DNA of 64,000 nt from Escherichia coli. Its GTDB lineage: Bacteria; Pseudomonadota; Gammaproteobacteria; Enterobacterales; Enterobacteriaceae. This document shows, in pieces, positions 18,401-21,400 of this stretch. The stretch's first letter is position 1. Every line of letters starts with the position of its first letter. The stretch lies in assembly GCF_030384885.1 (NCBI RefSeq), contig NZ_CP128613.1, one strand, 5' to 3'. Position numbers: made by a program.

Positions 18401-21400
18401 CACTGCATGATGATGGTGCGCTGTTTGTCATCCAGCTGTACGCTGGCGGCATCGACCTTTTTCTGCGCGACAATCAGCTCGTTTTTCAGTTTCTGATTTT
18501 CTTCTTTTAACCCGTTGATCACGCTGTCGCTCTGCGCCACTTTTTGCTGCATTTCTGCGGTGCGCTGATTCCAGGTGTTATCGATATTGGTGAGCTTATC
18601 GGTCAGGGTTTTGACCTGATTTTCCAGATCTGGCACACGGGAGCGCAGGCTTGGCTCTGTGCTAAGTTGTTTCAACGGGATCCAGGCGGTACGGCCAGAG
18701 CTGTCTTTCACCTGGGCATAATTGGTGTTGGCATCAGTTTGTAATAAGGTCACTTCCTCGCCGGCGTTAACCGTGCCCACGAGGCGATAATGGTCTCCCG
18801 GACCGCTACGGACCCAGGTATTCAGTTCGTCGGAAACATAGCGCGTTTCTTCAGCGTGTGAGACGGCAGTCGCGCTAAGTGCGAGTAAAGTTAATCCGAT
18901 CAGGCGTAATTTTGGCATCAGGCTGTCGTTATTGTCATGGAAAGTGGAACGATAGTAGTGGCATCAGTGTCGCTACGCAAAGCATTCGACATCAATCGGA
19001 ATCCTCTGTGTCAGGTCTTGCCACTGCTTCAAACTTTTACGCCCGTCAAATTGCCCGTTGCATGGCAATTTGGCGCAAAATACTATCTACTGACAAAAAA
19101 GATCGCATTAAGTTCGCCGTTCATCGTCACTTATGTGACATAACCGATAAGTAAAGGCTTTGACATCCTCCCCCACCTTCGCGCAAAGCGACTCAGGAGG
19201 GGGATTCCCTTGTCAGGGTAGCAATACGTTGCCGCATTGCCCGGTTCCTCGCTCGACGGCTTACGCCGCCTTACGGGCGCGTCCTTTACGGACTGACGGC
19301 AATATTTGTCCTGCCGCCATGACTTCAAAACCTGCTGTTAATATATTTCGAGCGCCGTTTACATCGGCGTTTGCCGTATAGCCGCACGCGGTACAGATAA
19401 AGCTCGCCTGCGCCCTGCGGTTAATTTTCGATGTATGCCCACAACATGCGCATTTCTGACTGGTGTACGCCGGATTAATCGCCAGCACATCACCGCCGCG
19501 CCATGCCTGCTTATATTCGAGCTGGCGGCGCATTTCTGCCCAGCCCTGATCCAGTATCGCTCGGTTAAGACCTGATTTTGCCGCGACGTTGCGCCCCGGC
19601 TGGTCTACCGTACCCGCTGCTGATTTTGACATGTTCGAAACCTTTAAATCCTCAATGACTATCATCGCGTGGTTTTTGCTGATCGTCGTCGTGGTTTTAT
19701 GAAGGTAATCGCGGCGGATGTTTGCGATATGAGAGTGGAAACGGGAAATCTTCGCTTTCTGCTTTTTCCAGTTGGCGGAGAATTTAACCTTCCGGGCCAG
19801 ATGGCGCTGTAAGCGAGCCAGCTTATCCTGATTTTTTTTAAAGCTGTTTACCGGTTCAAAGATCGTGCCGTCTGAAAGTGTTGCCAGCTTCGTTATACCT
19901 GCATCCAGGCCTATTGCGCTGGTCGATGCGTGAATCGGATCGGTAACAGCTAATTCGACCTGAAAAGACACATACCAGTGTCCGGCATGCTGGCTGATGG
20001 TGCAATTTTTAATGACGCCTTCAATCTTCCGGGACTGACGAAATTTAACCCAGCCCAGTCCTGACGGGAGTTTCACACGGCCATAATCCAGCCCACAATA
20101 TTTGCTGAAATTGACGAACCGGATAGAGTCGCAGCCTTTGGTTTTCTTTTTGAAAACGGGCTTTTCAGCCGTCAGGGATTTATCAAAACAGCGATCCCAT
20201 GCGCTCCGCAGGTCTTTCAGTTTCTGCTGGAGGTTGTCAGTGTAACCCTCAGCAAGAAAGGCCAGCTCAGGGAGTTTTTTCCAGCCCGTAAGTCGTTTAT
20301 TCAGGTCGAAAGCTGACGGAATTTTTCCGCCCGCGTCATGAATGCTCAGTGTTTCATTCAGTGCATAGTTCCAGACAAAGCGAGCGCAACCGCACAACTG
20401 ACGCAACCTTTGCGCCTGCTGGTCAGTGGGGTAGAGCCTGTATTTATATGCTTTCTGGATTAACATTTTGCATTCAGTATGTGGTTATTTAGAATGTACA
20501 ATATATCCACATTTTTTTGGGAGGATCAATACGTGTGCGAAATCAATCGTTCACGCTATTCAGCTTACCTGTTGCATGTTCACGTTGTTTTTATGACAAA
20601 ATACCGCCGTCCAGTTTTTGGTGAATTGCATCATGCAAACATGCGTCAGTATGTAGCGGAGGTATGCGCGGACTTTGGCGCCGAGTTAAAGGAATGTGAC
20701 GGCGAGGCAGATCATGTTCACATGCTGATTGAATACCCACCGTTGGTGCAACTCACAAAGCTGGTAAACAGCCTTAAGTCCGTTACCAGTAGGCGGCTGC
20801 GGAATGATTTTATTGATTTGCGCGCCGCGTATTCAAAGCCCGTACTCTGGTCACGCTCTTATTTCATCGGTTCATGTGGTGGAGCACCGCTGGAAGTTGT
20901 GAAAAAGTATATTCAGAATCAGCGTGGCTGATAAACTGCGGGCTTAACAGCCCAAATTCCCCTCCCGCCTACGTTGGGGGGGAGTACCCAGTGGAGGAAG
21001 GATGGCTCAGGAAATCGAATTAAAGTTTATTGTTAATCACAGTGCCGTTGAGGCGTTGCGTGACCATCTCAATACGCTGGGCGGCGAGCACCATGACCCC
21101 GTGCAGTTGCTGAATATTTACTACGAAACGCCGGATAACTGGTTGCGTGAACACGATATGGGCTTACGTATTCGTGGCGAAAACGGCCGCTATGAGATGA
21201 CCATGAAAGTCGCTGGAAGAGTGACTGGCGGTTTACACCAGCGCCCGGAATATAACGTGGCGTTGAGCGAACCGACGCTCGACCTGGCGCAGTTACCGAC
21301 GGAAGTCTGGCCGAACGGCGAATTGCCTGCCGATCTCGCTTCCCGCGTACAACCGCTGTTCAGCACCGATTTTTATCGCGAAAAGTGGCTGGTGGAACTC

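What the first reader, a model, noticed from the sequence alone, without database searches (positions are those of the whole stretch)
20932..21010. IS end lies within ~20-60 bp of the ygiF start codon
The tnpA stop is at 20931 and the ygiF ATG at 21002, so the element's terminal hairpins occupy what would be the ygiF promoter/leader. The native promoter of ygiF (and possibly of co-transcribed glnE) may be displaced or replaced by IS-derived sequence.
Basis: inference. Interest (0 to 1): 0.3.

Follow-up and report, generated by a model that had tools for sequence, protein, structure and literature searches.

The report
Insertion sequence docked onto ygiF start codon
A 1.8-kb mobile element sits directly against the first codon of the E. 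coli gene ygiF, so the gene's own ribosome-binding site and promoter region lie 1.8 kb away and the element supplies replacements; this is a tidy but ordinary case of a mobile element rewiring a neighbouring gene.

Summary
The window is E. coli 2013C-4282. Comparison with uninterrupted ygiM-ygiF spacers shows a 1842-bp IS200/IS605-family element (RefSeq: ISEc41 family) at 19160-21001. There is no target duplication, and its last base touches the ygiF ATG at 21002, so the gap is 0 bp, not 20-60 bp. The whole native 241-bp spacer, including the native Shine-Dalgarno AAAGG, now lies 1842 bp upstream.

The adjacency is mechanistic. In 25 of 26 copies examined, from five genera plus an Enterobacterales MAG, this end abuts ATGG (CCAT on the tnpB strand). 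That fits the IS608 guide/cleavage rule: GGTA lies 4 nt 5' of the hairpin foot. Here the ATGG is the ygiF start codon plus G.

The element tip supplies GGAGG 4 nt before the ATG (-9.3 against -3.5 kcal/mol pairing to 16S rRNA). tnpA runs in the same direction as ygiF, has a promoter-like site, and no terminator-like site was found before ygiF.

146 of 5426 complete E. coli genomes carry this allele, including CFT073, Nissle 1917 and ATCC 25922. Ten more carry a 63-bp remnant that keeps the same junctions. ygiF is intact in the three alleles checked.

Whether and how ygiF is expressed is inferred, not shown. This is a known kind of event with modest interest.

The parts
18919..19159 (+). Native ygiM-ygiF spacer (241 bp), now displaced 1842 bp away from ygiF. 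It ends with the native SD-like AAAGG at 19154-19158 (AAAGGC(C/T)). 19159 is T here and C in other strains. By eye there is a candidate native promoter TTGCAT-N17-TACTAT at 19058-19086, which falls below the scan tool's threshold.
   Evidence: Identical to empty-site spacers up to 19158. The promoter scan of the empty site found no + strand site.
19160..21001 (-). Complete IS200/IS605-family element (RefSeq name: ISEc41 family), 1842 bp, with no target-site duplication. The top strand is the tnpB (-) strand.
   Evidence: Boundaries come from empty versus occupied alignment. RefSeq annotation. 148 genomes hold a copy at 99% identity or more.
19160..19260 (-). Right end (RE). It ends ...GTCAA| on the top strand (TTGA at 19160-19163 on +), with an imperfect palindrome at 19165-19205. 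It lies downstream of tnpB and is the presumed scaffold region of the TnpB guide RNA.
   Evidence: Homology to related elements stops exactly at TTGACATCC. ssDNA fold z = -3.0. No Rfam family matched.
19261..20466 (-). tnpB (401 aa), RNA-guided endonuclease family.
   Evidence: Pfam OrfB_IS605, Cas12f1-like_TNB and HTH_OrfB_IS605. ISDra2 TnpB structure 8h1j matches residues 2-379 at E = 7e-49.
20467..20532 (.). Divergent control region. There is a promoter-like site on the + strand, TTTGCA-17-TAGAAT at 20467-20495, pointing towards tnpA and ygiF. There is one on the - strand, TTGATC-18-TATATT at 20529-20500, pointing towards tnpB. The tnpA SD GGAGGA is at 20520-20525.
   Evidence: Consensus scan. 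Sequence.
20533..20931 (+). tnpA (Y1 HUH transposase), running in the same direction as ygiF. The likely real start is GTG 20533 (132 aa), whereas RefSeq starts at ATG 20479.
   Evidence: Pfam Y1_Tnp at 1.4e-39, matching residues 29-148 of the long ORF. Homology to relatives begins at residue 21, and the relatives start at the equivalent position. IS608 TnpA structure 2a6m at E = 1.5e-20, with the HUH motif and catalytic Tyr aligned.
20932..21001 (-). Left end (LE). It holds a small hairpin at 20940-20953 and the subterminal imperfect palindrome at about 20956-20985. The 17-nt tip is 20985-21001; its first four bases (TACC on +, GGTA on the top strand, 20985-20988) lie immediately 5' of the hairpin foot on the top strand and are the presumed guide.
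   Evidence: RNA and DNA folds. The block AATTCCCCTCCC...GGGAGTACCC is conserved in 24 loci from other genera. The IS608 rule is from PMC3201880.
20993..20997 (+). Element-derived Shine-Dalgarno core GGAGG, 4 nt upstream of the ygiF ATG.
   Evidence: Duplex with the 16S rRNA 3' end is -9.3 kcal/mol, against -3.5 for the native leader. Relatives carry a GGAGG or GAGG core at the same place.
21002..21005 (+). ATGG. This is the element's target tetranucleotide (CCAT on the top strand) and at the same time the ygiF start codon plus the first base of codon 2.
   Evidence: It is present in the empty site. It flanks the LE in 25 of 26 copies, after which the flanks diverge.
21002..22303 (+). ygiF (inorganic triphosphatase, CYTH+CHAD), intact at 433 aa. 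The ExExK motif begins at residue 4, so this ATG must be the start.
   Evidence: There is no in-frame start codon between the upstream stop at 20945-20947 and 21002 (reading).

Best explanation
An IS200/IS605-family element with divergent tnpA and tnpB inserted 3' of its target tetranucleotide CCAT. At this site, CCAT is the complement of the ygiF start codon plus one base (ATG-G). Elements of this family insert without gain or loss of target DNA, and their left end always abuts the target. The element end therefore touches the ATG, and the ygiF reading frame is untouched. That much is shown.

The consequence, which is inferred, is that ygiF lost its own leader, Shine-Dalgarno sequence and promoter region, which now lie 1842 bp upstream behind an antisense tnpB. 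ygiF would now be translated from the GGAGG that the element tip places 4 nt before the ATG. It would be transcribed mainly by read-through from the tnpA promoter, which runs in the same direction, through the left-end hairpins. No terminator-like site was found there. On this view ygiF stays functional, but its expression is set by element sequences. Translation initiation is probably stronger than native. Transcription is of unknown strength.
For: Family identity rests on Pfam Y1_Tnp and OrfB_IS605, IS608 TnpA and ISDra2 TnpB as the closest solved relatives, and the RefSeq annotation.

Target specificity is supported three ways. ATGG flanks the left end in 25 of 26 copies from E. coli, Photorhabdus, Klebsiella, Pantoea, a MAG and a plasmid, with the flanks diverging immediately after it. 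The 4 nt 5' of the hairpin foot are GGTA, the same-order complement of CCAT, as with AAAG/TTAC in IS608. The right end finishes in TCAA, as in IS608.

The SD pairing is -9.3 against -3.5 kcal/mol. A + strand promoter-like site lies at 20467-20495, and there is no terminator-like site between it and ygiF.

The allele is tolerated. It occurs in 146 complete genomes, including CFT073, Nissle 1917, ATCC 25922 and ABU 83972, and a 63-bp remnant that keeps the same tip and ATG junction occurs in 10 more. ygiF is intact in the window strain, CFT073 and RM14723, with 57 nucleotide but only 7 amino-acid differences between the window strain and CFT073.
Against: No expression data were available. The promoter call is a 9-of-12 consensus match only. 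IS200-type tnpA genes are generally weakly expressed (general knowledge). The two left-end hairpins could attenuate read-through or affect mRNA stability. The 4-nt SD spacing is at the short end of the workable range. An intact ygiF does not prove expression, because much of the sequence divergence may predate the insertion or reflect recombination. ygiF is not essential (general knowledge), so a silencing insertion could also persist.
Confidence: 0.7

Rival explanations
1. The insertion silences or strongly reduces ygiF. The element insulates ygiF from its native promoter, tnpA read-through is negligible, and the allele persists only because ygiF is dispensable and glnE/hldE have other promoters.
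For: The native spacer is 1842 bp away behind an antisense gene. The tnpA promoter match is only 9 of 12. The left-end RNA is strongly structured, with the segment folding at -36.7 kcal/mol. A sigma-factor SELEX peak is listed between ygiF and glnE in K-12 (PMC5493296), so glnE need not depend on the ygiF promoter.
Against: ygiF is full length in three divergent element or remnant alleles, with about 8 times more nucleotide than amino-acid differences. RefSeq annotates ygiF as an ordinary CDS in the three element- or remnant-bearing genomes whose annotation was read. The tip offers a strong, largely unpaired SD. No terminator-like site was found.
Confidence: 0.2
2. ygiF is still driven mainly by its native promoter in the displaced spacer. 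Transcription would read through the right end, the antisense strand of tnpB, and tnpA, a leader of about 1.9 kb.
For: The spacer is intact upstream. Only one weak terminator-like site was found on the + strand inside the element, at 19408-19420 with a 5-bp stem. In the 63-bp remnant allele the native promoter must be the driver.
Against: It would require 1.9 kb of untranslated antisense transcription, which is prone to Rho termination (general knowledge), plus head-on collision with tnpB transcription. No + strand consensus promoter was detected in the native spacer by the scan.
Confidence: 0.08
3. The adjacency is a chance or assembly artefact with no mechanistic meaning.
For: None found.
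Against: Identical junctions occur in 146 complete genomes from independent projects. The ATGG flank is shared by relatives in other genera.
Confidence: 0.01

Closest known systems
IS608 (ISHp608) of Helicobacter pylori, IS200/IS605 family
   Same: It has a Y1 HUH transposase, and IS608 TnpA is the closest solved relative at E = 1.5e-20 with the HUH motif and Tyr aligned. It has subterminal imperfect palindromes rather than inverted repeats, and it makes no target duplication. It inserts 3' of a fixed tetranucleotide that abuts the left end. A 4-nt guide lies 5' of the hairpin foot, and the right end finishes in TCAA (PMC3201880).
   Different: The target is CCAT, not TTAC. The tip is 17 nt, not 19, and the right-end cleavage site is about 5-6 nt from the hairpin foot, not 10. 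tnpA and tnpB are divergent, as I recall for IS605, rather than co-directional. The tip carries an SD-like GGAGG.
ISDra2 TnpB and its right-end guide RNA (Karvelis et al. 2021, PMC8612924)
   Same: TnpB is homologous over residues 2-379 at E = 7e-49. tnpB is followed by about 100 nt of right end. In that system the target-adjacent motif equals the transposon's target site, so the motif expected here is CCAT and the guide would read into GGCCTTTACTTATCGG, which is the ygiF leader of empty alleles.
   Different: Nothing about RNA or cleavage was tested here, and no Rfam family matched. The motif would be CCAT rather than TTGAT.
Insertion sequences that replace or create expression signals of neighbouring genes (IS1, IS2, IS5 and IS10 outward or hybrid promoters; general knowledge)
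   Same: A mobile element displaces the native control region, and element sequences become the proximal signals.
   Different: Here the junction is at the start codon itself. The replacement therefore includes the ribosome-binding site, and the likely transcription source is read-through from the transposase gene rather than a dedicated outward promoter. No expression evidence exists yet.

Membership tests
IS200/IS605 family insertion sequence | Encodes a Y1 (HUH) single-strand transposase, TnpA | tested here: met
   Pfam Y1_Tnp at 1.4e-39. IS608 TnpA structure 2a6m at 1.5e-20, with dHvHml and kkYiqnq aligned to the IS608 HUH motif and catalytic Tyr region.
IS200/IS605 family insertion sequence | Optional accessory tnpB (RNA-guided nuclease family) | tested here: met
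   Pfam OrfB_IS605, Cas12f1-like_TNB and HTH_OrfB_IS605. ISDra2 TnpB structure 8h1j at 7e-49 over residues 2-379.
IS200/IS605 family insertion sequence | No terminal inverted repeats; subterminal imperfect palindromes at both ends | tested here: met
   The right-end hairpin at 19165-19205 gives an ssDNA fold z of -3.0. The left-end hairpin at about 20956-20985 is predicted in RNA, but the ssDNA fold of the left end alone is not better than shuffles (z = -0.2). The left-end hairpin is conserved in 24 loci from other genera.
IS200/IS605 family insertion sequence | Insertion without target-site duplication or loss | tested here: met
   The empty site GGCC|ATGG and the occupied site GGCC|element|ATGG show no repeated or missing base in CFT073-type alleles. 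The window strain has one flank SNP at 19159.
IS200/IS605 family insertion sequence | Left end always abuts a fixed 4-5 nt target sequence | tested here: met
   ATGG (CCAT on the top strand) is present in 25 of 26 copies, and the flanks diverge directly after it.
IS200/IS605 family insertion sequence | The cleavage or target site is matched by a 4-nt guide immediately 5' of the left hairpin foot (IS608 rule, PMC3201880) | tested here: met
   GGTA precedes the hairpin foot in the E. coli copy and the other copies examined. It is the same-order complement of CCAT, as AAAG is to TTAC in IS608. This is sequence-level agreement only.
IS200/IS605 family insertion sequence | Single-strand 'peel and paste' transposition activity | not testable with these tools
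   Biochemical or genetic assays are needed. The element is single-copy and at one locus in E. coli, so no recent movement is visible.
ISEc41 (named element) | High nucleotide identity to the ISfinder reference ISEc41 | not testable with these tools
   Only the RefSeq product name 'IS200/IS605-like element ISEc41 family transposase' is available.
IS-driven expression of an adjacent gene | Transcripts or translation of the neighbour gene originate from element sequences | not testable with these tools
   Only predictions are available: the promoter-like site at 20467-20495, no terminator-like site, and the SD energy. No RNA data were available and no paper was found.

The most novel reading that the evidence does not exclude
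The left-end tip of this element clade may be a built-in, outward-facing ribosome-binding site. The target is always ATGG and the tip carries GGAGG or GAGG 3-5 nt before it. Every insertion therefore makes a complete SD-ATG initiation region downstream of tnpA. When the target happens to be a real start codon, as at ygiF, the insertion is non-disruptive and re-supplies translation signals. In addition, the element's TnpB guide would match the ygiF leader of empty alleles (CCAT + GGCCTTTACTTATCGG). That could explain how one insertion, 99.2% identical between strains, comes to sit on ygiF haplotypes that differ by about 4%, namely by homing-like spread through recombination.
Probability: 0.15. 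Interest if true: 0.55.

Novelty: new member of a known kind. Interest (0 to 1): 0.3.

Why it matters
It gives a clean natural allelic series at one E. coli locus: the empty site, the full element, and a 63-bp remnant. In this series a gene's ribosome-binding site and promoter context are swapped for mobile-element sequence without touching the coding region, and it occurs in much-used strains (CFT073, Nissle 1917, ATCC 25922). Anyone comparing ygiF-glnE expression, triphosphate metabolism or nitrogen regulation between K-12 and these strains should know that the upstream signals differ completely. It also defines the target (CCAT) and the ends of this element clade, which predicts the target-adjacent motif of its TnpB. 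Beyond that, it is an ordinary consequence of site-specific insertion.

Tried and rejected
- **Rfam:** a search of 18800-21300 at E <= 1 found no family, so there is no curated guide-RNA or leader model here.
- **Literature:** searches for ISEc41, ygiF/glnE operon, ygiF with CFT073/Nissle, and c3803/c3804 found no paper describing this insertion or ygiF transcription in these strains. The only mention is an NsrR ChIP-seq table.
- **Start-codon preference:** I tested whether the clade preferentially sits on real start codons and rejected the idea. Of 25 flanking ATGs only ygiF opens a long ORF; the others are 81 aa or shorter, and the four of them tested had no Pfam hit.
- **Flank haplotypes:** comparing flanks to tell a single origin with recombination from repeated insertion was uninformative. 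There are no variable sites within 327 bp to the left or 41 bp to the right of the junction.
- **Outward promoter in the left end:** none was found by the consensus scan.
- **Native ygiF promoter:** the scan found no + strand site in the empty spacer. My by-eye candidate TTGCAT-N17-TACTAT matches only 8 of 12 positions and remains a guess.
- **Tip pairing hypothesis:** I considered that the CCTCC in the tip exists to pair with the invariant GGAGG of the hairpin's 3' arm. The tip varies in the Pantoea and plasmid copies while the arm does not, so there is no covariation. This is inconclusive.

Full report
**What is in the window.** The window matches the chromosome of E. coli 2013C-4282 (NZ_CP027579.1) at 100% identity. 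The gene order around the finding is as follows:
- cca, 16996-18234, minus strand
- ygiM, 18298-18918, minus strand
- tnpB, 19261-20466, minus strand
- tnpA, 20479 or 20533 to 20931, plus strand
- ygiF, 21002-22303, plus strand
- glnE, then hldE

**Exact boundaries.** Most E. coli genomes have an uninterrupted 241-bp ygiM-ygiF spacer that ends ...GATAAGTAAAGGCC|ATGGCTCAGG (L001 from O157 and L003, K-12-like). In the window the left flank matches through 19158 and the right flank matches from 21002. CFT073 and the other carriers have the flank C at the position of 19159, so the T there is a strain SNP. The inserted DNA is therefore 19160-21001, 1842 bp, or 1841 bp in CFT073, which has one G fewer in a G-run. 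No base is duplicated or lost. The element end touches the ygiF start codon, so the distance is 0 bp, not 20-60 bp. The native leader, including its weak SD-like AAAGG two bases before the ATG, now lies 1842 bp upstream.

**What the element is.** tnpA has the Y1_Tnp domain (1.4e-39) and tnpB has the OrfB_IS605, Cas12f-like TNB and HTH domains. The closest solved relatives are IS608 TnpA (2a6m, 1.5e-20, with the HUH motif and catalytic tyrosine region aligned) and ISDra2 TnpB (8h1j, 7e-49). RefSeq calls it an ISEc41-family IS200/IS605-like element.

Both ends carry subterminal imperfect palindromes. Homology to two related elements on plasmids stops exactly at TTGACATCC. This fixes the right end, which reads ...GTCAA| on the tnpB strand and so finishes in TCAA, as IS608 does.

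RefSeq's tnpA start at ATG 20479 is probably too far upstream. Homology to relatives begins at residue 21, the relatives start at the equivalent position, and GTG 20533 is preceded by GGAGGA at 7 nt.

**Why the end abuts the ATG.** I scanned one genome per species for the conserved left-end block (AATTCCCCTCCC...GGGAGTACCC). This returned 24 loci in Photorhabdus, Klebsiella, Pantoea, Mangrovibacter and an Enterobacterales MAG. With the window, CFT073 and the plasmid copy that makes 27 sequences, but CFT073 repeats the window's insertion, so there are 26 distinct insertions. In 25 of the 26, the block is followed by a 12-14-nt tip and then ATGG, after which the flanks are unrelated. Because ATGG is present in the empty E. 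coli site, it is the target and not part of the element.

On the tnpB (top) strand the target is CCAT. The four bases immediately 5' of the left hairpin foot are GGTA, its same-order complement. IS608 has the same relation, with target TTAC and guide AAAG, cleavage 19 nt 5' of the foot, and a right end finishing in TCAA (PMC3201880). Here the tip is 17 nt.

The adjacency is thus a mechanistic consequence of target choice. What is particular to this locus is that the ATGG is a real start codon. Among the 25 flanking ATGs only ygiF opens a long ORF; the others are 81 aa or shorter, and the four of them tested have no Pfam match. The 64-kb window alone holds 500 ATGG/CCAT sites, so landing on a start codon is uncommon. 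It is not a property of the clade.

**What the element supplies to ygiF.**
- *Translation.* The tip reads AGTGGAGGAAGG|ATG, so GGAGG (20993-20997) lies 4 nt before the ATG. Predicted pairing with the 16S rRNA 3' end is -9.3 kcal/mol, against -3.5 for the native leader. The SD is mostly unpaired in the predicted ensemble.
- *No N-terminal extension.* There is an in-frame stop at 20945-20947 and no start codon between it and 21002.
- *The ATG must be the start.* The CYTH ExExK motif of YgiF begins at residue 4 (MAQEIELK).
- *Transcription.* tnpA runs in the same direction as ygiF. A promoter-like site TTTGCA-17-TAGAAT lies at 20467-20495. No other + strand promoter-like site lies closer to ygiF, and no terminator-like site lies between it and ygiF.
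- *Native spacer.* It gave no + strand consensus promoter in the scan.

These are predictions. No expression data were available.

**Population picture.** Of 5426 complete E. coli genomes, 146 have the element at this locus with the same junctions, and 148 have a near-full copy. These include CFT073, ABU 83972, Nissle 1917 and ATCC 25922. Apart from distant plasmid-borne relatives at 75-79% identity, nearly all matches to the element are at this one locus.

Ten further genomes, for example RM14723, carry a 63-bp remnant at exactly the same position. It consists of the first 44 nt of the right end fused through a GGGGGA microhomology to the last 19 nt of the left end. It therefore retains the GGAGGAAGG|ATG junction and lacks both genes.

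ygiF is full length in the window strain, CFT073 and RM14723, with 57 nucleotide but only 7 amino-acid differences between the window strain and CFT073. The element differs by 0.8% between the window strain and CFT073, while the ygiF region differs by 4.1%. The sequence near the junction is too conserved to tell whether this reflects recombination or repeated insertion.

**Interpretation.** The structural statement is secure: the element docks on the start codon and the native signals are displaced.

The functional statement is the best-supported inference but is untested. It holds that ygiF is now translated from an element-derived SD and transcribed mainly by tnpA read-through. The main rival is that ygiF is largely silenced and the allele is merely tolerated. 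A SELEX peak listed between ygiF and glnE in K-12 (PMC5493296) means glnE need not depend on the ygiF promoter.

**Comparison with what is known, and novelty.** The element passes every IS200/IS605 membership feature that can be tested by sequence. Mobile elements replacing neighbouring control regions are well known. I found no paper describing this particular junction. The one relevant mention is a CFT073 NsrR ChIP-seq table listing a peak 232 bp upstream of ygiF, next to c3803, a position that lies inside tnpA (PMC5320621). I rate this a new member of a known kind, of modest interest.

The most novel reading still open is that the conserved SD-like tip together with the ATGG target forms a portable translation-initiation region, possibly combined with TnpB-guided homing into empty ygiF alleles. 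I give that about 15%.

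Noticed in passing
L005 (E. coli RM14723) 1501-1563; equivalent to window 19160-19203 fused to 20983-21001: Ten complete E. 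coli genomes carry a 63-bp remnant of the element at exactly the same site. The right-end hairpin is joined to the last 19 nt of the left end through a GGGGGA microhomology. The remnant keeps the GGAGGAAGG|ATG junction with ygiF but has neither tnpA nor tnpB. It is a natural control allele, or possibly a minimal non-autonomous derivative.
   Followed up: partly
window 20985-21005 and loci L008-L031: In relatives from Photorhabdus, Klebsiella and a MAG, the left-end tip reads TTTGGAGG(T/A)AAAG or TTTGAGGTGAAG directly before the target ATGG. Every insertion therefore creates an SD-spacer-ATG pointing outwards. Pantoea and a decayed plasmid copy lack the SD core. Why the tip is SD-like is unexplained.
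   Followed up: partly
window 19159: There is a T here where all other carriers and all empty sites examined have C. This is the first flank base next to the right end. It would therefore be the first base of the predicted TnpB guide and target.
   Followed up: no
window 20479-20532: RefSeq starts tnpA at ATG 20479 (150 aa). Homology to relatives begins at residue 21, the relatives start at the equivalent position, and GTG 20533 has a GGAGGA 7 nt upstream. The real start is probably 20533 (132 aa). The annotated N-terminal extension overlaps the predicted divergent promoters.
   Followed up: yes
window 20976-20982: The G-run in the 3' arm of the left-end hairpin is G7 in this strain and G6 in CFT073. 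This is a homopolymer length polymorphism inside the transposase recognition hairpin.
   Followed up: no
window 19160-21001 compared with 21002-22500 (against CFT073, L004): The element is 99.2% identical between this strain and CFT073, but the adjoining ygiF region is only 95.9% identical. ygiF of the remnant strain is different again. The same insertion therefore sits on divergent haplotypes. Recombination, repeated site-specific insertion or TnpB-assisted homing are all possible.
   Followed up: partly
CFT073 coordinate 3639613 of the original genome record (PMC5320621, Table 2); about window 20770: A published NsrR ChIP-seq peak in CFT073 is listed 232 bp upstream of ygiF, between ygiF and c3803. 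That position lies inside the element's tnpA gene, not in the native spacer, although ygiF is also an NsrR ChIP target in K-12.
   Followed up: no
L006 (plasmid pA123_1) 2502-3466 and L007 (plasmid 2 of isolate AJ6) 2360-3774: Decayed or tnpA-less relatives of the element (75-79% identity) lie on large E. coli plasmids. One is internally deleted and sits next to a CRISPR array with csf2 (a type IV system), and its left end again abuts ATGG.
   Followed up: partly
L008-L023, L025 (Photorhabdus cinerea, thracensis, khanii, asymbiotica, noenieputensis): The same element clade is multi-copy in Photorhabdus genomes, with up to 6 hits in P. thracensis. This contrasts with the single fixed locus in E. 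coli and suggests the clade is or was active there.
   Followed up: no
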